A stretch of 53,711 nt of DNA from an uncultured Devosiaceae bacterium (GTDB lineage: Bacteria; Pseudomonadota; Alphaproteobacteria; Rhizobiales; Devosiaceae), in assembly GCA_964555575.1 (NCBI GenBank), contig CAZKTH010000001.1:1-53711 (forward strand). The letters are read 5' to 3'. Below the pieces are notes generated by a model that searched no databases, was not told the origin of the DNA, and worked only from the letters and a program-made list of their open reading frames with translations. The position numbers were made by a program, and so were the translations under genes. Shown piece by piece: positions 18,462 to 47,748 of the stretch; within the stretch, counting starts at the first letter, position 1, and every line of letters begins with the position of its first letter.

Positions 18462-19424
18462 TCAGGCCGGAACCGGCGCGGGATGCAGGACCGGCCGGCC
18501 GGACAGAACCCGAACGACCTCCTCCGCCGCCATCACCGAACAGCGGCTGACTGACTCGGCGGTGTAGGCGCCGGCATGGGGGGTAGCGACCACGTTCGGC
18601 AGCTTCAGGAGCGGGTTGTCGGGATGGGGCGGCTCCGCGCTGAAGGTGTCCGCTCCGTAGCCGGCGATCCGTCCCGAGGCGAGCGCGTCGTGAAGATCGG
18701 CTTCATCGATGAGGTCGCCGCGCGCCGTGTTGACGATGATGGCAGTGCCTTTCATCGTCGCCAGCGTGGCCGCGTCCACCATGTGGCGGGTCTCGGGCGT
18801 CACCGGCAGATGCAGCGTGAGGTAGTCCGCCTCGGCGAACGCCGTCGCGCGATCGACGTAACGGACGCCATGTTGCTCGATCAGGTCCGGATTCTGCACG
18901 AGGTCGTTGGCCAGGATCGACATGCCGAAGGCACGGGCGCGCTTGATCACTTCGCTGCCGATGGCGCCGGTGCCGATGATCGCAAGGGTCTTGCCGAAAA
19001 GCTCGCAGCCGAGCGCGCGTTTCCACAATCCGTTGCGAACGTCGATGTCCTGGGCGGGAATCCTGCGGGCAACCGAAAGCATGAGGCCGAAGACAAGCTC
19101 GGCGACCGAAACGGTGTTGGCGCCCGGCGCCAGCGTCACGGCAATGCCGAGCCGTGCCGCCGCCGCGACATCGACGGCGTTGTATCCGACGCCGTTCCTG
19201 GCGACGATCCTGAGGGTGGGGGCTCCTGCGGAAAGGACGGCAGCGGTTATCGAATCAAGGCCGACGATCGCCGCATCCATGCCGACGACGGCACCGAGCA
19301 TTTCACTTTCCCGCCACGGCCTGTCGCCGACATGGGTGACGATCTCGTGCCCTGCCGCCTCGAGGATGGCGAGTCCCTCCCTGTTGGCGGCGACCGAACG
19401 CGCGGTGATCAGTACTTTGCCCAT
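18462..19424 (-). CDS. D-isomer-specific 2-hydroxyacid dehydrogenase family protein
   Basis: IIGTGAIGSEV NAD-binding motif, ARGDLIDE, and C-terminal VATPHAGAYT. Confidence 0.85.
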   Translation of the reverse strand: MGKVLITARSVAANREGLAILEAAGHEIVTHVGDRPWRESEMLGAVVGMDAAIVGLDSITAAVLSAGAPTLRIVARNGVGYNAVDVAAAARLGIAVTLAPGANTVSVAELVFGLMLSVARRIPAQDIDVRNGLWKRALGCELFGKTLAIIGTGAIGSEVIKRARAFGMSILANDLVQNPDLIEQHGVRYVDRATAFAEADYLTLHLPVTPETRHMVDAATLATMKGTAIIVNTARGDLIDEADLHDALASGRIAGYGADTFSAEPPHPDNPLLKLPNVVATPHAGAYTAESVSRCSVMAAEEVVRVLSGRPVLHPAPVPA

Positions 19425-19467: not shown

Positions 19468-21000
19468 TCAGCCATTCTGGAAGGCCGAGATGTCGGCGAA
19501 TTCCTTTTGCAGGTTCCAGTAGATGCGCTCGTAGATGCCGTAGAGCCGCCTGTAGGTGGCGGCCTCGGCAGGGCGCGGTTTGTAGGTTTTCCGCGCCGCG
19601 ACGAAATCGCCCGTCACGGAGATATCGGAGAGAACGCCCGTCGACACGAATCCGAGCACGGCGGCACCAAAGGCCGCGCCCTCGTCTATAGCCGGAACCG
19701 TGATCGGCTGGTCGAAGATGTCGGCCAGGATCTGGATCCACAGTTCCGAACGGGTGAAATTGCCGCTGACACGGATTTCGTCGGCCGGACCGGCGACCTC
19801 GGCCAGGGCTGTGGCCACGGAGTGCATGCGGTAGCCCACGCCTTCCAGAACGGCGCGGATGATGTGCTTGTTGGTATGCGCCAGGTTGAGGCCCAGCAAG
19901 GTTCCGCGCGCGTCGGCGTTCCAGTAGGGCGCGCGCTCTCCGGCCAGGAAGGGCAACATGATGAGCCCGTCGGCGCCGGCGGGCACTTCGGCGGCGGCCT
20001 GCGTCATCATCGTATAGATGTCGCTGCTGGCCTGGTCGGCCAGGGCCGGCGAGGCTTCGGTCAGCCGGTCGCGCAACCAGCTCAGGACGATTCCGCCATT
20101 GTTGATGGCGCCGCCCAGAACCCACATCCTGTCGGTCAGGTTGTAGCACCAGGTCCGTCCCCTGGGATCGGTCAGCGGCTCGGAATTCAGCATGCGCACC
20201 GCGCCGCTGCTGCCGACGGTACAGCTCATCTGGCCATGGTGGACGGCACCGATCCCGACATTGACCAGCACGCCGTCGCCGGCGCCGATCACCACGGGAA
20301 TTCCGGCGGGAAATCCGATGGATTCGGCGATATCGGTCCGCAAGGGCGCGCTGTGGTCGGTGGAAACGATCGGCGGCAGGGCATCCGTGTCGATGCCGAG
20401 ATAGGCGACGAGTTCGCGATCCCATTCGGCCCGGAACAGGTTGTACAGGCCGGAGCCGCTGGCGATCGAGCGGTCCACCACCCATTCGCCCGTTAGCGTG
20501 CGGAAGACAAAATCCTTGATCGAGCCGAAATGGGTGGCGCGGGAATAGGCCTCGGAGTCCTCGCGGCGCATCCAGGCGATCTTGGTCACGGGATAGATCG
20601 GATTCATCGGACAGCCGGTGCGGGCGTAGACGGCGAAAACGTCGCCAAAGGCGCCTTTCATCTCCTCGACCGACCGCTGGCTGCGAATATCGGCCCAGGT
20701 CATCAGCGTCGAGGCCGGGCGCCCGTCGCCGTCATAGGCCAGGAAGGTGTGAAAGGCCGAGCTGATGGCCAGCCCGTCCGGACGCAGATTCCGTTGGGCC
20801 AGCGCCTCGCCGAAGCCGCGCAGTACCGCCATTGCGGCGTCCAGGATCTGTCCGGCATCCTGTTCCGCCCAGCCCGGATGCGGCGAGTTGAGCCGGTATT
20901 CCCGGGCAACACTGCCGACCGAGGTGCCGTCGGGGTGATACCCGACCACCCGAACACCCGTCGTTCCGATGTCTATTCCGATCCACAGCGGCTTTCGCAT
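19468..21000 (-). CDS. FGGY-family carbohydrate kinase (gluconokinase/xylulokinase-like)
   Basis: MRKPLWIGIDIGTTGVRVV N-terminus and GGAINNGG in the C-terminal domain. The ATG at 21000 is chosen over the upstream start of the 550-aa ORF. Confidence 0.85.
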   Translation of the reverse strand: MRKPLWIGIDIGTTGVRVVGYHPDGTSVGSVAREYRLNSPHPGWAEQDAGQILDAAMAVLRGFGEALAQRNLRPDGLAISSAFHTFLAYDGDGRPASTLMTWADIRSQRSVEEMKGAFGDVFAVYARTGCPMNPIYPVTKIAWMRREDSEAYSRATHFGSIKDFVFRTLTGEWVVDRSIASGSGLYNLFRAEWDRELVAYLGIDTDALPPIVSTDHSAPLRTDIAESIGFPAGIPVVIGAGDGVLVNVGIGAVHHGQMSCTVGSSGAVRMLNSEPLTDPRGRTWCYNLTDRMWVLGGAINNGGIVLSWLRDRLTEASPALADQASSDIYTMMTQAAAEVPAGADGLIMLPFLAGERAPYWNADARGTLLGLNLAHTNKHIIRAVLEGVGYRMHSVATALAEVAGPADEIRVSGNFTRSELWIQILADIFDQPITVPAIDEGAAFGAAVLGFVSTGVLSDISVTGDFVAARKTYKPRPAEAATYRRLYGIYERIYWNLQKEFADISAFQNG

Positions 21001-21103
21001 GGCGCTATCGGTTGCCTGTGGCCCCCCCCTCCCGACGGCCCGAACCAGCCCTGTTGCCGTGTCGTTGCCGTCCGGTTCCTCACCTTTATGACGAAAGCAG
21101 TTA

Positions 21104-21140
21104 GCATACTTGCATACCACCGGTCAATTGTGTAGTATGC
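21104..21140. promoter_or_regulatory. GCATAC-TT-GCATAC direct repeat plus an inverted GTATGC, a candidate FadR/GntR-type operator in the divergent promoter
   Basis: Read directly (21104-21117 and 21135-21140). A near-identical GCATACTTCCATAC lies at 46837-46850, at the start of another GntR gene. Confidence 0.3.
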
Positions 21141-21223
21141 CACTCGTTCGCCGACGCCTGGGGAGGGATTGCGTCGACAATCTCTCCAGTGCGCGGGCTC
21201 TGCGATCCATGTGACGAGGAACC

Positions 21224-22258
21224 ATGCACAGCACAAATTCACGCTCCGACACGCTTGTCAAACAGACAACGGACACCGTTCGGCGCATGATCGTCGAGGG
21301 CGATCTGCAGCTCGGCGAGGCCCTGTCGGAAGCCCGCGTGGCCAAATGGCTCAATGTCAGCCGCACGCCTGTTCGCGAGGCATTTGCCAAGCTTCAGATC
21401 GAAGGTCTGGTTGTTTCCGAACCCCAGAGAAGAACTTGCGTATTCTTCCCGACATCAAAAGACCTCGACGACATCTGTGATGCAAGATGCTGTCTTGAGG
21501 CACGAGCCCTGACACTTGCCATAGAAAGAAACGGCGAAAAGCTCGGAAGAATTCTAGTCGATATTTATCGAAAAATGGAAGGTGCGATGGAAAGCGGCGA
21601 TATGAAGGAATATCATCGACTTGATATCTATTTTCATCAGGCCGTTTTCGATTTGGCCGACAATGAATTTCTCAACGACGCCTATCAGACGATTTCGGCG
21701 AAACTCGCCACTTTCAGGACACGTCTCGCCACGCACAAGGACTATATGCAAAAAGGATTTGCCGAGCACCGCGATCTCGGCACGCTGGTTCTGGCGGGAG
21801 ATCTCGATGCGGCGCTGGCCGTTCTGGAAGGGCATATCTCGCGCAGCGCCGATTCCTACTGGCGGCTGAACATCCGGTCGGAATCGGCCGGGATGCGCCA
21901 CGACCACCCCGAATACAATGAATTCGACACGCCGGCAACGCCCGCTATTTCGTCTATAACAAATAGACGAAATAACGAGGAAACGGTGCAGGAAATCGAC
22001 AAAACCGGCCAAAAAGCCGACGACGAAATCAATAAAATCGACGAAACATGGGCCGATAAAAATTGCGTAGACGAAAAACGCAGGGGCCGGCCGCGGCGTT
22101 ATGTCGACGATGCGGCACGGAAACGCGTCTGGGCGGCGCGCCGGCGCGAACGCCAGCGGCTGGAGCAGGCGGCCCAGGGCCTTCCGGTGCCGAAGCGGGG
22201 CCGGCCGCGCAAGTCGCAGACCGAAGGCGATGCGGAGGACCGGTCGGCGGGGGCGTAG
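21224..22258 (+). CDS. GntR/FadR-type (FCD) regulator with a C-terminal extension of about 125 aa carrying two AT-hook-like RGRPR motifs
   Basis: wHTH LSEARVAKWLNVSRTPVREAFAKLQIEGLV, then an FCD-like helical domain ending near HISRSADSYW, then the tail ...KRRGRPRRYVDDAARKRVWAARRRERQR...PKRGRPRKSQ. GAGGA lies upstream of the ATG. G+C is markedly lower than in the neighbours. Confidence 0.8.
   Translation: MHSTNSRSDTLVKQTTDTVRRMIVEGDLQLGEALSEARVAKWLNVSRTPVREAFAKLQIEGLVVSEPQRRTCVFFPTSKDLDDICDARCCLEARALTLAIERNGEKLGRILVDIYRKMEGAMESGDMKEYHRLDIYFHQAVFDLADNEFLNDAYQTISAKLATFRTRLATHKDYMQKGFAEHRDLGTLVLAGDLDAALAVLEGHISRSADSYWRLNIRSESAGMRHDHPEYNEFDTPATPAISSITNRRNNEETVQEIDKTGQKADDEINKIDETWADKNCVDEKRRGRPRRYVDDAARKRVWAARRRERQRLEQAAQGLPVPKRGRPRKSQTEGDAEDRSAGA
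21947..21973. repeat. Perfect inverted repeat ATTTCGTCTAT-AACAA-ATAGACGAAAT inside the 3' extension of the GntR gene
   Basis: Read directly from the sequence. It is followed by further direct GACGAAA copies at 22022, 22040 and 22070, and a GACAAAA variant at 21998. Confidence 0.85.
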
Positions 22259-22583
22259 CATGAAACACGGCGATGCGAGCTTTGTGACCTTTCGCGCCGG
22301 CACCGGCGGCACCGAAGACGCCGTGCCCGCCGATCGCTTCGCCGCCGCGGCAGGACCTTTTTTGCGTCGTCGCCCGGCCCGCCCTTCGGCATGCGGGGCC
22401 GAACGGCGCATGTCTGCAATGCTGTTCCGCCGCAAAGGCTATCGGCCTCGGCCAGAGCGGAACGGCTGTCTATCCCGTCATCACGAAGTGACGGCTACGT
22501 CGCCCTCAGCGGGCGGCAAGGAAACGCGTGCCAGCAAAAAAGCTGACCGCAAGGATGCGTAATATCAATCGGGAGGAGAACCC

Positions 22584-23570
22584 ATGAAGTCCCTATTTTC
22601 ATTGAGCCTTGCCAGCCTGCTGGCGCTTGGCATCATCGCCGCTCCGGCGCTTGCCGCCCCGGTCACGCTCAAGATGGCCAATGTCACATCGCTGTCGGCC
22701 AAGGATGCCGGCGTCGAGTTCAAGAAGATCGCCGAGGAGGCTTCGGGCGGCACGCTGACGGTGGAACTGTTCCCCGACAACCAGCTCGGCGACGACCGCA
22801 CCGCCGTCGAGTCGACGGTGTTCGGCGACATCGACATCACCGTTTCCTCGACCAGCCCGATGGCGACGATGTTCCCGGACCTTTTCGTGTTCGATGCGCC
22901 CTTCCTCTTCCTCAGCCCGGACGATGCCTACAGCGCGCTCGATGGCGCCGGCGGCAAGCAGGCCTTCACCTCGCTCGAACCCAAGGGCCTCAAGGGGCTC
23001 GCCTATTGGGAGAATGGCTTCCGCAACCTGACCAACAACAAGAAGGAAGTGCACGTTCCGTCCGAACTCGACAACATGAAGATCCGTGTCATGCAGAACG
23101 AGATCCAGCTGGCGGCGTGGAAGGCCTTCGGCGCCAATCCGACGCCGATGGCGTTCACTGAGCTGTTCACCGCCCTGCAGCAGGGCACGGTCGACGGCGA
23201 GGAGAACCCGCTCGGCATCATCGACGGCAACAAGTTCTGGGAAGTGCAGAAATTCGTGTCGCTGACCCAGCACGTCTACACGCCCTATATCGTCGTGATG
23301 AACCTCGACAAGTTCAATTCGCTCGACGACACGCAGAAGGCGGCGATCCTGAAGGCGTCGGTGGAATCGACGGTCTATCAGCGCAACCGCTCGCAGGAAC
23401 TCGAGGGTGAAATCCTCAAGAAGATCCGGGACAAGGGCATGACCGTGACAACGCTGACGCCCGACCAGAAGGCGGCCTGGCAGCAAAAGATCGTCGACGC
23501 CAACCTCTACGACATGGTCAAGGCGAAGATGGATCATCCCGAAATCCTCGACACGCTGTTGGCCAAATAG
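22584..23570 (+). CDS. dctP: TRAP transporter substrate-binding protein (DctP family)
   Basis: Signal peptide and LKMANVTS...FPDNQLGDD..., the typical DctP pattern. GGGAGGAG RBS. Confidence 0.9.
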   Translation: MKSLFSLSLASLLALGIIAAPALAAPVTLKMANVTSLSAKDAGVEFKKIAEEASGGTLTVELFPDNQLGDDRTAVESTVFGDIDITVSSTSPMATMFPDLFVFDAPFLFLSPDDAYSALDGAGGKQAFTSLEPKGLKGLAYWENGFRNLTNNKKEVHVPSELDNMKIRVMQNEIQLAAWKAFGANPTPMAFTELFTALQQGTVDGEENPLGIIDGNKFWEVQKFVSLTQHVYTPYIVVMNLDKFNSLDDTQKAAILKASVESTVYQRNRSQELEGEILKKIRDKGMTVTTLTPDQKAAWQQKIVDANLYDMVKAKMDHPEILDTLLAK

Positions 23571-23815
23571 GCCGAACGTCCGGTCCGGCGCGACCGATCC
23601 CGTCCTCGCGGACCCCCTCCCCCAACCGGGTCAAGGGAATGTCCGCGGGGACCTGGTCGAAAGCGCCGGCCCCACGTCACCGGTCCGGCATCCGGCCTGA
23701 AACCCGACGGCCCGCATGAGTCCGTGTCCGAAAGCGTTGCCCGTGGCGCGCCCATCCGGATCCGTGGCAGGCCAGGCGGAAATGGCCGGATGCGACACAA
23801 GTTGAGTGGGAAGAC

Positions 23816-24298
23816 ATGAAGACAATTCGCTACTTTCTCGACAACTTCGAAAGACTGGTGAGTATTGCTCTCATGTCGATCATGACCGTCATCCTGGCCA
23901 TTCAGGTCTTCATGCGATACGTCATGAACAATTCCCTGTCCTGGTCGGAAGAAATGGCCAGATACATCTTTGTCTGGCTGATCTATATTTCGATCAGCTA
24001 CGGCGCCCAGTCGATCAAGCACATCAAGATCGATGCGGCCATGGCGCTGTTCCCGGCCAAATGGCGGCGCTGGGTGGCGATTCTTGGTGACGTGCTCTTC
24101 CTTCTGTTCTGCCTGTTCATCGTCTGGACGGCCTGGGGAATCATCGGCCGCCAGCTGAAGCTCGGCCAGTATTCGCCAGCCATGCAGATGCCGATGTGGA
24201 TCCTTTACGCGGCGCCGATGGTGGGGTTCGGCCTGACGGCGATCCGCGAGGTGCAAACGATCTATCGTCGCCTCACCGATCCCGACATGGACGTCTGA
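23816..24298 (+). CDS. dctQ: TRAP transporter small permease (DctQ family)
   Basis: 160 aa with 4 predicted TM segments. The motif SWSEEMARYIFVWLIYISISYG is typical of DctQ. It lies directly upstream of DctM. Confidence 0.9.
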   Translation: MKTIRYFLDNFERLVSIALMSIMTVILAIQVFMRYVMNNSLSWSEEMARYIFVWLIYISISYGAQSIKHIKIDAAMALFPAKWRRWVAILGDVLFLLFCLFIVWTAWGIIGRQLKLGQYSPAMQMPMWILYAAPMVGFGLTAIREVQTIYRRLTDPDMDV

Positions 24299-24300
24299 TC

Positions 24301-25584
24301 ATGATCGTCGCCACCCTCTTCATCGGCATGACGCTGTTCATCATTCTCAGCGTCCCTGTCGGTATCGCCATTGGCATGGCTTCGGTGGCCTCGATCATCG
24401 TCGGCCAGACCCTGTCGCCGGGCTTTGTGGCCCAGACACTGGTCACCTCCACCGACTCGTTCCCGATCATGGCCATCCCGCTGTTCATCCTGGCGGGCGA
24501 ACTGATGGGGGCCGGCGGAGTGTCGCGGCGGATCCTTGATGCCGCGAACTGCTTTTTCGGGCGCATGACCGGCGGCCTCGCCATCGTCACGGTCGTGGTG
24601 TGCATGTTCTTTGCCGCCGTATCGGGCTCGGGTCCGGCGACCGTCGCCGCCGTCGGCGGCATGGTCGTTCCGACCATGCTGCGCGAGGGCTACTCCAAAT
24701 CCTTCACGCTGGCCCTGATCGCCACCGCCGGCTCGATCGGCGTCATCATCCCGCCGAGCATCCCCATGGTGATCTACGGCGTTTCCACCTCCACCTCGAT
24801 TTCCGACCTGTTCCTCGGCGGCTTCGGCCCCGGCATGCTCATCGGCATGGCGCTGATCGGCTGGTCCTATTTCTATTCCAAACGCATGGGCTGGCGCGGT
24901 CTTCACGACGAGTTTTCCTGGCGCCACACCGGGCGGGCGCTGTGGGACGCCAAATGGGCCCTGATCAATCCGGTCATCATCCTGGGTGGCATTTATGGCG
25001 GCGTCTTCACGCCGACCGAAGCGGCCGCCGTGGCGGCGAGCTATGCCTTTGTCGTCGGCGTGTTCATCCACCGCGAACTCGATCCGCGCACCCTGTTCAA
25101 GTCGATCGGCGGCGCCTGCTCGACCACCGGCACGACCATGGTGATCCTTGGCTGCGCCTCGGCCTTCACCCGCATCCTGACCATCGAGCAGGTGCCGGTG
25201 CAGGTGTCGGAAATGATCATCCATCTGACCGACAACCCCTATCTGCTGCTGATCATGATCAACGTGCTGCTGCTGATCGTCGGCTGCGTCATGGACACCA
25301 CGCCCGCCATTCTGGTGCTGGCGCCGATCCTTTTCCCCGTCGCCACCTCGTTCGGCATCGATCCGGTCCATTTCGGCCTGATCATGGTGGTGAATCTCGC
25401 CATCGGCTTCATTACCCCGCCGCTCGGCATCAATCTGTTCGTGGCGGCACGCGTCGGCGACTCGCCGATCGGGGTGGTCATACGCGGACTGGTGCCGTTC
25501 CTGGTCACCATGATCGCCTGTCTGCTGATCATCACCTACGTGCCGGATCTGACCATGTTCCTGGTCGACAGGTTCGGCCTTTGA
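24301..25584 (+). CDS. dctM: TRAP transporter large permease (DctM family)
   Basis: MIVATLFIGMTLFIILSVPVGIAIG..., FPIMAIPLFILAGELMG, TPTEAAAVA. ATG at 24301, 2 nt after the dctQ stop. Confidence 0.9.
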   Translation: MIVATLFIGMTLFIILSVPVGIAIGMASVASIIVGQTLSPGFVAQTLVTSTDSFPIMAIPLFILAGELMGAGGVSRRILDAANCFFGRMTGGLAIVTVVVCMFFAAVSGSGPATVAAVGGMVVPTMLREGYSKSFTLALIATAGSIGVIIPPSIPMVIYGVSTSTSISDLFLGGFGPGMLIGMALIGWSYFYSKRMGWRGLHDEFSWRHTGRALWDAKWALINPVIILGGIYGGVFTPTEAAAVAASYAFVVGVFIHRELDPRTLFKSIGGACSTTGTTMVILGCASAFTRILTIEQVPVQVSEMIIHLTDNPYLLLIMINVLLLIVGCVMDTTPAILVLAPILFPVATSFGIDPVHFGLIMVVNLAIGFITPPLGINLFVAARVGDSPIGVVIRGLVPFLVTMIACLLIITYVPDLTMFLVDRFGL

Positions 25585-46111: not shown

Positions 46112-46840
46112 CTATTCGGAGGGCTCGAAATACTCCGGGAAGGCTTCCCGGATTTTGGGAATAAACGGGAAAATCTCCCGCAGATGTTTTCGCATCGCCC
46201 GTTCGGCCGCCGCCGGATCGGCCTTGGCCACGGCGGTGACGATCGCGGTATGCTGACTGATGAGTTTTGCCGCCGGAAAACGGGAGGCGCGCAGGTGACG
46301 CACGCGGTCCATCGGCGTTTTCAGCCCTTCGAGGACCCGCCAGGCGTTCCGCTTGCCGGCGGCCTCGGCCAGGGTCCGGTGAAAGCTGTCATCGAGATGC
46401 ACGAACTCTCCGACGGCACCATTGGCAACCACCTTCTGCGCATCCAGCAGCGCATAGAGCTCCGTCAGAACCGCCCGATCGGCCTTTTCGGCCACAAGCC
46501 TGACAACATCGGCCTCGACGGCCTCGCGAAGAAACCGCGCGTCCAGAACCGCGTCCAGCGAAATCTTGCGTACGAACGTGCCGCGCTGCGGCCGGACTTC
46601 GAGAAGCCCCTCATTTGCCAGCTTGATGAATGCCTCGCGAACCGGCTGGCGGCTGACGCCAAAGGATTGCGCGATGGTGGATTCGGTCAGTCGCGTGCCA
46701 GGGACATATTCCCCGAAAACGATATTCTCGCGCAGAACCCGATAGATCTGCGGCGCAACCGGCGCCGCCTTCTCCTTCAGCTCGAAAATGTCGCCGGTCT
46801 TGGCCAAAGGTCCACCCTCTCTGCGCCAACTATCTTGCAT
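46112..46840 (-). CDS. GntR/FadR-type (FCD) transcriptional regulator
   Basis: LTESTIAQSFGVSRQPVREAFIKLANEGLLEVRPQRGTFV and a helical FCD domain. Confidence 0.85.
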   Translation of the reverse strand: MQDSWRREGGPLAKTGDIFELKEKAAPVAPQIYRVLRENIVFGEYVPGTRLTESTIAQSFGVSRQPVREAFIKLANEGLLEVRPQRGTFVRKISLDAVLDARFLREAVEADVVRLVAEKADRAVLTELYALLDAQKVVANGAVGEFVHLDDSFHRTLAEAAGKRNAWRVLEGLKTPMDRVRHLRASRFPAAKLISQHTAIVTAVAKADPAAAERAMRKHLREIFPFIPKIREAFPEYFEPSE

Positions 46841-47061
46841 ACTTCCATACTAGTCAACAACCAATCCGAGTAGTTTCACCGTCGTAAAAATCTGGAAATC
46901 GGAGGGGCGATGACGCAGGCTTGACGGCAGCAAATGGCACATCGCCGAGACTGTCCCTGGAAGCTGTCGAAAGCCTGCCGGTTTCCAAGGACATCCGGAA
47001 GCCGATCGGGAACCGGCGCAAACACATCGCCAACTGGAAAACCTCGAGAGCAGCGAGGTCG

Positions 47062-47748
47062 TCACACGTTCTTCGACTTCTGGTCGGCGGCCGCGATGTC
47101 TTCGATCTCCAGGGAATAGGTCTCTTCGGTACGGCCGATATGTCGGCGCAAAAGCGCTTCGACGTCTGTGTCGCTGCCCGTCTCGATGGCGTCAAGGATC
47201 AGCTTGTGCTCCTCGAAAGACAGGCGCGTGTGCATCGCCTTGGATGCCAGACGGGTTCTGAGGGCGGCGATCTTTCCGACGTAGCGGGCGTAGCTGTCGG
47301 CCAGGTACTGGTTGCCGCAATGGGCGAAAATGGCATTGTGGAAGGCGGTATCGAGCGTCAGATAGGCGCGCGTGTCGCCTTTCCTGAGCGCCTCTTCCAT
47401 CTTCTTGACGACCGCGGACAAATCCTTGGCCAGGCCGGTGCGATCACGCTGGATGGCCAGGGTCAGCCCTGCCCCTTCCAGCGCCAGCCTGAATTCGCAG
47501 ATCTGCACGACCTCGCGGGCGCTCAGCGTGAAAACATAGGCGCCTTTTTGCGGAACGATCGTGACTAGCCCCTCGCCCCGCAGCTGGACGAGCGATTCCC
47601 GAACCGGTGTCTTCGAGACGTTGAGACTCTCGGCAAGAACACGCTCGGACAGGGCCGCTCCCAAACCGAAATCGCCGCTGACGATGGCTTCCCGCAGCCG
47701 TTCGAGCACCGTTTGCGTCAGAGATTTGGGGCGATTTATGGCGTCCAT
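47062..47748 (-). CDS. GntR/FadR-type (FCD) transcriptional regulator
   Basis: LSERVLAESLNVSKTPVRESLVQLRGEGLVTIVPQKGAYV plus an FCD domain. The start is taken at MDAINRPKSL (47748). The ORF also allows a start at 47796. Confidence 0.8.
   Translation of the reverse strand: MDAINRPKSLTQTVLERLREAIVSGDFGLGAALSERVLAESLNVSKTPVRESLVQLRGEGLVTIVPQKGAYVFTLSAREVVQICEFRLALEGAGLTLAIQRDRTGLAKDLSAVVKKMEEALRKGDTRAYLTLDTAFHNAIFAHCGNQYLADSYARYVGKIAALRTRLASKAMHTRLSFEEHKLILDAIETGSDTDVEALLRRHIGRTEETYSLEIEDIAAADQKSKNV

What the first reader, a model, noticed from the sequence alone, without database searches (positions are those of the whole stretch)
21224..22258. Low-GC GntR/FCD regulator fused to a basic tail with two AT-hook (RGRPR) motifs
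Seen in the sequence: the wHTH plus FCD domain ends near residue 218 (HISRSADSYW), but the frame stays open for about 125 more codons. The tail is first acidic (EIDKTGQKADDEINKIDETWADKNCVDEK). It is then strongly basic, with KRRGRPRRYVDDAARKRVWAARRRERQR and PKRGRPRKSQ. Hand counts of 60-nt lines inside the gene give 45% (21541), 38% (21601), 45% (21961) and 40% (22021) G+C, against about 60% or more in sampled flanking genes. Established knowledge: R-G-R-P flanked by basic residues is the AT-hook minor-groove DNA-binding core, and it is uncommon in bacterial one-component regulators. Inference: this is a horizontally acquired regulator, possibly a fusion of a GntR gene with a small AT-hook protein of mobile-element origin. 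It would have two DNA-binding modes and controls the divergent FGGY-kinase operon and/or the TRAP operon.
Basis: partly seen in the sequence, partly recalled or inferred. Interest (0 to 1): 0.6.

Follow-up and report, generated by a model that had tools for sequence, protein, structure and literature searches.

The report
GntR repressor with portable AT-hook tail
This is a real sugar-acid repressor that long ago gained a second, AT-hook-type DNA-binding tail also found in plasmid-like proteins, and the DNA encoding the tail's flexible linker carries a conserved array of short DNA words that look like binding sites hidden inside the gene.

Summary
ORF 21224-22258 encodes a 344-aa VanR/FadR-type GntR regulator (wHTH plus FCD). 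It is followed by a disordered acidic linker and a basic module with two RGRPR AT-hooks.

The tail is not an artefact. 24 homologues carry it, its dN/dS matches that of the core domains, and a tree of the core domains needs one gain and one loss.

The same module ends an unannotated ~570-830-aa protein family and a 164-aa protein. Those whose loci were read lie in plasmid-like loci (KfrA, resolvase). So the "fusion with a mobile-element AT-hook module" idea is supported, but the fusion is old.

Low GC is real: 56.6% against 63.5% for the genome. Orthologues share it, including one in a syntenic locus, so recent transfer of the regulator is not shown.

A tandem GCATAC box overlapping the -35 element is conserved in all nine tail-bearing loci whose DNA was read. 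It is the likely wHTH operator.

The unexpected result is in the linker-coding DNA. It carries 3-6 copies of TAGACGAAA, 47-fold enriched across 13 loci. Copies occur in different reading frames and on both strands and are built from rare codons. This is nucleic-acid-level selection.

The most likely reading is that these words are the tail's own binding sites. No binding has been tested.

The parts
21224..22258 (+). Complete gene for the 344-aa GntR/FCD regulator with its C-terminal tail
21260..21442 (+). Winged helix-turn-helix (residues 13-73)
   Evidence: Pfam PF00392, 52.7 bits. AF2 pLDDT is 90-97.
21470..21841 (+). FCD effector domain (residues 83-206), a six-helix VanR-type fold. D134, H138, H182 and H204 are invariant.
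   Evidence: Pfam PF07729, 79.6 bits. Invariant columns. Foldseek matches to 7u5q, 4p9f, 3fms, 6za7 and 9isw.
21878..22075 (+). Disordered, net-acidic linker (residues 219-284). Its protein sequence is nearly unconstrained.
   Evidence: AF2 pLDDT is below 50 for residues 218-287. Linker dN is about equal to dS. Net charge is -10.
21947..22077 (.). Array of (T)AGACGAAA words inside the linker-coding DNA. Copies lie at 21948-21956 (-), 21964-21972 (+, out of frame), 22022-22028, 22040-22046 and 22068-22076 (+). A variant ATCGACAAAA lies at 21996-22005. The first two copies form the palindrome 21947-21973.
22082..22096 (+). AT-hook 1, RGRPR (residues 287-291), invariant in all tail-bearing homologues
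   Evidence: It gives no Pfam hit on its own.
22103..22174 (+). Basic alpha-helix DDAARKRVWAARRRERQRLEQAAQ (residues 294-317) following hook 1
   Evidence: AF2 helix 294-317 with pLDDT about 92. R20, K21, R22, W24, A25, A26 and R29 of A2 are invariant.
22196..22210 (+). AT-hook 2, RGRPR (residues 325-329). The helix that follows it in other clade members is lost here.
   Evidence: Pfam PF02178 above its cut-off. Alignment.
21104..21140 (+). Candidate wHTH operator. GCATAC-TT-GCATAC lies at 21104-21117 and an inverted GTATGC at 21135-21140. It overlaps a -35-like TTGCAT (21110-21115) and a -10-like TAGTAT (21133-21138) with a 17-nt spacer.
21090..21096 (+). Single GACGAAA word 8 nt upstream of the operator box, in the divergent intergenic region
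   Evidence: It is not conserved in the other GntR loci, except for one 17-bit hit in the L014 promoter.
19468..21000 (-). Divergent FGGY carbohydrate kinase. Its likely start is at 21000, giving 510 aa as in the syntenic locus. It is the probable target operon, together with the 2-hydroxyacid dehydrogenase at 18462-19424.
22584..25584 (+). Downstream TRAP transporter genes dctPQM, 325 nt after the regulator's stop codon

Best explanation
The gene encodes a genuine, full-length VanR/FadR-type GntR repressor.

1. Core function (inferred). The wHTH most likely binds the tandem GCATAC boxes that overlap the -35 element of its own promoter. From there it controls its own gene and the divergent kinase/dehydrogenase operon. 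The metal-type FCD pocket would sense a sugar-acid-like effector.

2. The tail (shown). A disordered acidic linker tethers a conserved basic module to the core. The module is an AT-hook plus a basic helix, followed by a second AT-hook. This module was gained once, early in a small alphaproteobacterial clade. It comes from a two-unit module otherwise found in plasmid-type proteins. It has since been kept under purifying selection.

3. What the tail does (inferred). It acts as a second DNA anchor, with the hook in the minor groove of an A/T run and the helix contacting neighbouring bases.

4. Likely target (inferred). The preferred targets are most likely the GACG-AAA(W) words that fill the DNA encoding the protein's own linker, about 850 bp from the operator. 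A dimer could then be tethered to, or loop across, its own gene.
For: Domains and fold:
- The GntR, FCD and AT_hook assignments come, the AF2 model, and the VanR-type fold matches.

The tail is translated and selected:
- 24 homologues of 322-393 aa cover 87-100% of the query.
- RGRPR (twice) and the RKRxWAA motif are invariant.
- Module dN is 0.09-0.39 against dS 0.75-2.7, like the core, while linker dN is about equal to dS.
- The tree of core domains puts 25 tail-bearing and 8 tail-less proteins in one clade (support 100/96) and needs 2 changes.

The module is portable:
- A profile search of 1.84e9 proteins gave 43 hits, among them an unannotated ~570-830-aa family and the 164-aa P0127.
- Their neighbours include KfrA and a resolvase.
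- P0127 is not a split fragment of the larger family.

Operator:
- One GCATAC-NN-GCATAC box lies in the 5' control region of the regulator's gene or operon in all 9 tail-bearing loci read.
- In this window 2 such sites occur against 0.05 expected by chance.
- A tail-less relative has the same half-site as a palindrome.

Word array:
- GACGAAA occurs 39 times in 3.16 kb of pre-hook DNA from 13 loci, against 41 times in 155 kb elsewhere. This is 47-fold enrichment, Poisson p = 2e-50.
- PWMs trained with one locus left out rank the linker hits first in all 7 loci scanned.
- Copies occur in frames 0, 1 and 2 and on both strands. Nine out-of-frame or inverted AGACGWWW copies were seen against 0.3 expected.
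- The codon before GAC is an NTA codon in 14 of 19 units, against 24 of 458 in the core (Fisher p = 3e-13). Linker Arg-Arg pairs are AGA CGN in 7 of 10 cases.
- The four loci of the other module-bearing proteins also have 1-2 copies 70-90 nt upstream of the start codon, and in three of them a copy abuts a CTTG -35-like element.
- In this genome both the array and the module are unique.
Against: - No binding has been measured. The link between the tail and the words rests only on their co-occurrence.
- Most copies (29 of 43 in the GntR clade and 14 of 15 in the other proteins) are in frame as Asp-Glu-x. Part of the enrichment could therefore reflect an acidic peptide motif.
- The linker is more AT-rich than the background used for the expectations.
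- L020 has lost the copy next to the hook and keeps only two out-of-frame copies.
- Only 2 of 9 GntR loci have a clear word in the promoter region.
- Hook 1 alone does not reach Pfam's AT_hook threshold.
- L022 and L023 are related loci, so the promoter-copy count is not four independent cases.
- Repression rather than activation, and the identity of the effector, are assumed from the family.
Confidence: 0.6

Rival explanations
1. A low-GC regulator recently arrived by horizontal transfer as a fresh fusion of a GntR gene with a small AT-hook gene. The low GC marks its foreign origin.
For: - The gene lies in the lowest 0.8% of genome windows for GC, and its GC3 is 0.63 against 0.80-0.88 in neighbouring genes.
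- No orthologue of the regulator was found in 40 relatives, and none of the kinase in 25 relatives.
- The module was found in 0 of 400 genomes of the class.
- Stand-alone and plasmid-borne carriers of the module exist.
Against: - The fusion is shared by a clade with only 47-61% identity and needs a single gain.
- The syntenic locus L013 has the same low-GC regulator (58% against 68% for the locus) between neighbouring genes that are 73-88% identical to those here.
- All six orthologues measured lie below their loci in GC.
- The neighbouring genes have host-like GC3.
Confidence: 0.1
2. The tail is an arginine-rich RNA-binding or protein-interaction segment, and the words act in the mRNA. The hairpin at 21946-21974 would be an example. 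The result would be translational or mRNA-stability autoregulation rather than DNA binding.
For: - The helix AARKRVWAARRRERQR resembles arginine-rich RNA-binding helices (from my own knowledge).
- RNA folding of 21930-22090 gives -47.3 kcal/mol with z = -4.3, including a 12-bp hairpin.
- Most word copies are in the sense orientation.
Against: - The inverted pair is seen only at the 5' edge of the array, in 4 of 9 loci.
- Copies upstream of the start codon in the other module-bearing loci abut -35-like elements in three of four cases, which suggests promoter DNA rather than mRNA.
- RGRP hooks are classic minor-groove DNA binders.
- No Rfam family matches the region.
Confidence: 0.12
3. The word array has no function of its own. 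It is left over from repeated slippage or duplication of a short V-D-E-K coding unit in a low-complexity acidic linker. That linker may act only as an intramolecular mask for the basic hooks, as the acidic tail of HMGA does.
For: - Most copies are in frame and encode an acidic tripeptide.
- Spacings of 15, 30 and 45 nt recur.
- The linker protein sequence is otherwise unconstrained.
- Acidic regions flank the AT-hooks in HMGA and CarD (PMC2919716).
Against: - Only the 9-10-nt core is conserved between units, not the whole unit.
- The same word, built from the same rare codons, persists across lineages whose synonymous sites are saturated.
- Out-of-frame and inverted copies are 30-fold over expectation.
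- Copies also lie in the non-coding DNA or the end of the preceding gene, 70-90 nt upstream of the start codon, in the other module-bearing loci.
Confidence: 0.15
4. Annotation or assembly artefact. The true protein would stop near residue 220, and the tail would be untranslated or belong to another frame.
For: None was found.
Against: - 24 independent homologues from different assemblies keep the frame open.
- They conserve the module with dN well below dS.
- AF2 predicts a confident helix in the tail.
Confidence: 0.02

Closest known systems
VanR/FadR-subfamily GntR regulators with an FCD domain. Examples are TM0439 (3fms/3sxy), E. coli McbR/YncC (4p9f), Atu1419 VanR (6za7), AlkR (9isw), DhdR (9jpj) and the Brucella regulator 7u5q.
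   Same: - N-terminal wHTH plus an all-helical FCD domain, with fold matches at TM 0.75-0.84 normalised to the target.
- Invariant D/H/H/H positions.
- Divergent arrangement with a catabolic operon.
   Different: - All the solved relatives listed are 198-278 residues long, and the fold alignments stop at about column 230.
- None has the 125-aa linker plus AT-hook module.
- The operator here is a tandem direct repeat with an 8-bp period, not a simple palindrome.
WhiB7 of actinobacteria (PMC3905903)
   Same: A bacterial transcription factor whose C-terminal AT-hook gives an auxiliary contact with A/T-rich DNA next to a -35 hexamer.
   Different: - The core is unrelated. WhiB7 is an Fe-S Wbl protein bound to sigma A.
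- It has one hook, no following basic helix and no acidic linker.
- Its sites are in promoters, not inside its own coding sequence.
HMGA-like C-terminal domain of Myxococcus xanthus CarD (PMC2919716, PMC4374960)
   Same: An acidic region next to repeated RGRP AT-hooks, appended to a bacterial transcription factor.
   Different: - CarD has four hooks, no basic helices, and an RNAP-binding N-domain.
- No sequence relationship was detected here.
- No cognate word array is known for CarD.
Phage lambda O protein and ori-lambda (iterons inside the O gene; from my own knowledge)
   Same: An array of short repeated DNA sites lies in the part of a gene that encodes a flexible linker of a DNA-binding protein.
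   Different: - Lambda O is a replication initiator, and its N-domain binds the iterons.
- Here the host gene is a chromosomal metabolic repressor, and there is no evidence of origin function.
Minor-groove arm next to a major-groove element in one DNA-binding unit: the Hin recombinase GRPR arm with its HTH, and the SKN-1 arm with its basic helix (from my own knowledge)
   Same: A GRPR-type arm directly precedes a helix. The word GACG + AAAW would suit one element reading bases and one reading an A/T minor groove.
   Different: There is no homology. A single long helix replaces the HTH. The bZIP-type N-x2-AA-x2-(C/S)R signature is absent.

Membership tests
GntR superfamily (PF00392) | N-terminal winged helix-turn-helix | tested here: met
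   PF00392 scores 52.7 bits against a cut-off of 27, at residues 13-73. AF2 shows the HTH plus two strands at pLDDT 90-97.
FadR/VanR subfamily (FCD, PF07729) | All-helical FCD effector/dimerisation domain | tested here: met
   PF07729 scores 79.6 bits against a cut-off of 24.3, at residues 83-206. The model has six helices. Foldseek gives probability 1.00 to VanR-type structures.
FadR/VanR subfamily (FCD, PF07729) | Asp/His/His/His metal site in the FCD pocket | tested here: inconclusive
   D134, H138, H182 and H204 are invariant in 29 sequences. Equating them with the TM0439 ligands rests on spacing recalled from memory and was not checked by superposition.
AT-hook (PF02178) | R-G-R-P core flanked by basic residues | tested here: met
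   Hook 2 scores 18.3-23.2 bits against a cut-off of 17.4. Hook 1 has RRGRPRR but gives no Pfam hit alone. Both are invariant in the clade.
AT-hook (PF02178) | Binds the minor groove of A/T-rich DNA | not testable with these tools
   This needs EMSA or footprinting with netropsin or distamycin competition.
HMGA-like domain (CarD C-terminus) | Several AT-hooks plus a contiguous highly acidic region, intrinsically disordered | tested here: inconclusive
   Two hooks sit next to a linker of net charge -10, and the linker is predicted disordered. However, a confident 24-residue helix follows hook 1, and no sequence relationship to HMGA or CarD was found.
WhiB7-type AT-hook regulators | Wbl Fe-S cluster domain that binds sigma region 4 | tested here: not met
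   Pfam finds only GntR, FCD and AT_hook.
Iteron-in-gene arrangement (lambda O / ori-lambda type) | Array of a repeated DNA word inside the coding DNA for a flexible linker, conserved at the nucleotide level | tested here: met
Iteron-in-gene arrangement (lambda O / ori-lambda type) | The words are bound by the gene's own product and serve as a replication origin | not testable with these tools
   No binding data exist. The chromosomal metabolic context argues against origin function in the GntR loci.
bZIP-like basic region | N-x2-AA-x2-(C/S)-R signature in the basic helix | tested here: not met
   The helix reads HAD-x-AARKRAWAARER. There is no Asn at the -3 position and no Cys or Ser at the signature position.

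The most novel reading that the evidence does not exclude
The tail and the TAGACGAAA array form a portable cassette of a DNA-binding module plus its own cognate sites. The two-unit AT-hook/basic-helix module travels together with iteron-like sites written into the DNA that encodes its linker. The cassette would have been captured once from a plasmid-type protein by a metabolic GntR repressor. That repressor now binds its own coding sequence, giving cis-tethering, looping to the operator about 850 bp away, or a transcriptional roadblock.
Probability: 0.35. Interest if true: 0.8.

Novelty: new variant of a known kind. Interest (0 to 1): 0.62.

Why it matters
AT-hooks are well studied in eukaryotes but documented in only a few bacterial regulators, such as WhiB7 and CarD. 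I found no report of a GntR/FCD regulator with one.

This case shows a conserved two-unit "hook plus basic helix" module that no Pfam, NCBIfam or PHROG model covers. It is shared between chromosomal metabolic repressors and plasmid-type proteins.

The more unusual point is that the module always comes with a nucleotide-level conserved word array in the DNA encoding its own linker. If the tail binds that array, this would be a compact example of a DNA-binding domain and its sites moving as one unit inside an ORF. It would also show a one-component regulator tethered to its own gene.

The idea is directly testable with two proteins, with and without the tail, and three DNA fragments.

Tried and rejected
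- **MITE or inserted element:** The repeat finder found no terminal inverted repeats bracketing the tail.
- **Known RNA:** Rfam gave no hit at E <= 1 over 20900-22700.
- **Host-factor regulon:** TAGACGAAA occurs only 18 times in 3.5 Mb, against about 8 expected from my own base-composition estimate. The only other 3-copy GACGAAA cluster (C26) is incidental.
- **Other module carriers in this genome:** none were found.
- **Naming the ~570-830-aa module-bearing family:** Pfam, NCBIfam and PHROGs gave nothing. A homologue search found only 2 unnamed relatives. tblastn against plasmids gave one distant hypothetical protein for the N-terminal part and nothing for the module. The AF2 model was too poor for a fold search, with mean pLDDT 47.
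- **More DNA loci:** the genome contigs and metagenome-contig scans returned one locus each. 400 class genomes had no module and no close relative of tail-less P0030. I therefore could not test whether the array disappeared when the tail was lost.
- **Literature:** there was no paper on GntR plus AT-hook or on the peptide or DNA words. The DNA-word hits listed were unrelated eukaryotic or biomedical studies.
- **Second long FCD protein in L014 (326 aa):** it has no hooks.
- **P0127 as a split fragment of the large family:** rejected.
Full report
**1. What is there**

The ORF 21224-22258 (+) encodes 344 residues.
- Pfam places a GntR winged helix at residues 13-73 and an FCD domain at 83-206.
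- It also places an AT_hook at 324-333, above its gathering score (19.6 bits in the whole protein, 23.2 in the tail alone, cut-off 17.4).
- NCBIfam gives only sub-threshold matches to GntR/FCD equivalogs.

AlphaFold with a 29-sequence alignment folds residues 4-217 confidently. It leaves 218-287 disordered (pLDDT below 50). It predicts one confident helix at 294-317 (pLDDT about 92), right after the first RGRPR. The core superposes on VanR-type FCD regulators such as 7u5q, McbR, TM0439, Atu1419, AlkR and DhdR. None of these has a tail.

The linker 219-284 has net charge -10 and the module 285-333 has +15.

**2. Composition**

- The gene is 56.6% GC against 63.5 +/- 2.5% for the genome, which puts it in the lowest 0.8% of 1035-nt windows.
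- Its GC3 is 0.63 against 0.80-0.88 in the five neighbouring genes and 0.73-0.77 in two GntR paralogues in the window.
- The deviation sits in the core (wHTH 56.7%, FCD 51.7%) and the linker (49.7%). The basic module is GC-rich (73.8%).
- All six orthologues examined are also 3-10 points below their own loci.
- The closest one, L013, lies in the same gene order: dehydrogenase, FGGY kinase, regulator, dctPQM. Its neighbours are 73-88% identical to those here, while the regulator is only 61% identical.
- The low GC is therefore long-standing and a family trait, not a fresh scar of transfer.
- The kinase-regulator unit as a whole is accessory. No orthologue of the regulator was found in 40 relatives, and none of the kinase in 25 relatives.

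**3. The tail is real, old and selected**

- 24 homologues (322-393 aa, 47-61% identity) cover 87-100% of the query. More distant homologues (207-259 aa) end after the FCD domain.
- The alignment shows a variable linker followed by VDEKRRGRPRxHADxAARKRAWAARERAKKK ... KRGRPRKYATQAERQKAYAxRRR. This is two units of [AT-hook + basic helix].
- RGRPR (twice) and the RKRxWAA motif are invariant.
- The window's protein and its subclade have lost the second helix.
- Nei-Gojobori estimates give module dN of 0.09-0.39 against dS of 0.75-2.7, like the core. The linker has dN about equal to dS.
- A maximum-likelihood tree of the core domains puts all 25 tail-bearers and 8 tail-less proteins in one clade (support 100/96). 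The tail-less proteins are nested inside it, which implies one gain and one loss.

**4. Where else the module occurs**

- A profile of the module searched against 1.84e9 representative proteins gave 43 hits. Apart from the GntR fusions and eukaryote-like multi-hook proteins, these fall into three groups.
- The first is an unannotated family of about 570-830 aa with the module near the C-terminus (P0121, P0128, P0132-P0134, P0156; P0140, 409 aa, looks like a fragment). It has no Pfam, NCBIfam or PHROG hit.
- The second is a 164-aa protein, P0127, with an acidic N-terminal half plus the module.
- The third is a set of small proteins carrying single or double units.
- The loci of these proteins hold KfrA_N, resolvase, a D12 methyltransferase, a PDDEXK protein, an SNF2 helicase or an ars operon. 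P0127 is not a split piece of the big family.
- The module is rare: 0 of 400 class genomes carry it, and nothing was found in PLSDB by tblastn.

**5. Operator**

- The 5' control region of the regulator's gene or operon in all nine tail-bearing loci read holds exactly one tandem box, (T/C)WGCATAC repeated 2-4 times with an 8-bp period.
- The last repeat overlaps a -35-like hexamer, and a -10-like element lies about 17 nt downstream.
- In the window the box is at 21104-21117, with an inverted GTATGC at 21135-21140. Two sites with at most one mismatch occur in 53.7 kb, against 0.05 expected.
- A tail-less homologue in a relative has GCATAC-A-GTATGC. The box is therefore read by the shared wHTH, not by the tail.
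- The gene partners differ between subclades: FGGY kinase with dehydrogenases in one, and a 990-aa FAD/Fe-S oxidase in the other.

**6. The unexpected part: a DNA word array inside the linker-coding sequence**

An earlier first-reader note (e1-4160737, seen) prompted me to compare the linker DNA across loci.
- In the 240 nt before hook 1, GACGAAA occurs 39 times in 3.16 kb pooled from 13 loci (9 GntR loci and 4 loci of the other module-bearing proteins).
- Elsewhere in those loci it occurs 41 times in 155 kb. This is 47-fold enrichment, Poisson p = 2e-50.
- The fuller consensus in the GntR clade is A-rich, then (G/A)TAGACGAAA(W).
- PWMs trained with one locus left out place their top hits in the linker of the omitted locus in all seven loci scanned.

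Three observations show that the constraint is on nucleic acid, not on the peptide.
- (i) Copies occur in all three frames and on both strands. Examples are the window's ATAGACGAAAT read as N-R-R-N, with an inverted partner that forms the palindrome 21947-21973. L020 has only out-of-frame copies. Nine out-of-frame or inverted AGACGWWW copies were seen against 0.3 expected.
- (ii) Codon choice is skewed. The residue before Asp uses an NTA codon (GTA or ATA) in 14 of 19 units, against 24 of 458 V/I/L codons in the cores of the same genes (Fisher p = 3e-13). Asp is GAC in 19 of 19 units. Linker Arg-Arg pairs are AGA CGN in 7 of 10 cases. GTA, ATA and AGA each make up about 3% of their codon families in this genome.
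- (iii) The residue after Asp-Glu varies among T, K, N and I, all of which have A-initial codons. Meanwhile the adjacent RRGRPR codons vary freely at synonymous sites.

In the four loci of the other module-bearing proteins, 1-2 further copies lie 70-90 nt upstream of the start codon. In three of them a copy abuts a CTTG -35-like element. In this genome the array and the module are each unique.

**7. Interpretation**

- Shown: domain content, conservation, single origin, purifying selection, portability of the module, the conserved box, and nucleotide-level selection on the word array.
- Inferred: the wHTH binds the box and represses its own promoter and the divergent operon. The tail is a second DNA anchor. 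Its preferred sites are the GACG-AAA(W) words, with the helix reading bases and the hook lying in the adjacent A/T minor groove. This would tether the dimer to its own gene.
- The co-travel of module and words in unrelated proteins, and the promoter copies in the other module-bearing loci, are the main support.
- Rivals are an RNA-level role (hairpin z = -4.3), a functionless slippage product or an acidic mask, recent horizontal transfer, and artefact. These are weighed in their own sections.
- The closest precedents are WhiB7 (C-terminal AT-hook next to the -35 element; PMC3905903) and CarD (acidic region plus four hooks; PMC2919716). For sites inside a linker-coding region, the precedent is lambda O and ori-lambda (from my own knowledge).

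**8. Limits**

- No binding or expression data exist.
- All carriers but one are metagenome-derived.
- The background used for word expectations is more GC-rich than the linker.
- L022 and L023 are related loci.
- DNA of the tail-less descendants could not be fetched.

Noticed in passing
window 46837-46850: A second GCATAC-TT-CCATAC box, followed by GTCAAC, lies about 90 nt upstream of another FCD/GntR gene (46181-46750, minus strand; 32% identical to this regulator). The two regulators may share operators or cross-regulate.
   Followed up: partly
window 47104-47733 (-): A tail-less paralogue, 40% identical. Its upstream region has a different repeat type (TGATATCTCAGATGTCATATGTCA), which is also seen upstream of its relatives in L005 and L006.
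   Followed up: partly
L021 439-2586, L023 4001-6154, L024 4001-5971: An unannotated ~570-830-aa protein family ends in the same two-unit hook-plus-helix module. It sits next to KfrA, a methyltransferase, a PDDEXK protein, an SNF2 helicase or ars genes. It has no Pfam, NCBIfam or PHROG model, and only its N-terminal 125 residues fold confidently in AF2.
   Followed up: partly
L022 3912-3934 and L023 3914-3935: Two GACGAAA words 15-16 nt apart lie directly upstream of a CTTG(C/A)(C/A) -35-like element in front of the module-bearing genes. This looks like an autoregulatory operator.
   Followed up: partly
L020 2028-2060: The orthologue P0007 has four tandem 8-bp operator repeats (GCATACGC TGGCACAC TGGCATAC TGGCATAC) instead of two.
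   Followed up: no
window 21001-21120: The mechanical ORF for the FGGY kinase starts at GTG 21120. However, the ATG at 21000 gives the 510-aa length of the syntenic orthologue. With that start the intergenic region is 223 nt and contains the operator.
   Followed up: partly
window 22256-22583: The frame of the regulator stays open for a long way past its TAG stop. The genome search reports a 443-aa open frame with one TAG. In L013 dctP was called at 449 aa, overlapping the regulator's end. This is probably a high-GC artefact and was not examined further.
   Followed up: no
L015-L017, 4849-7899: In the Xanthobacteraceae-type subclade the regulator is divergent from a 990-aa FAD-binding/Fe-S oxidase. 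The fold search lists the D-2-hydroxyglutarate regulator DhdR among the structural relatives. This hints at a 2-hydroxy-acid effector for that branch.
   Followed up: no
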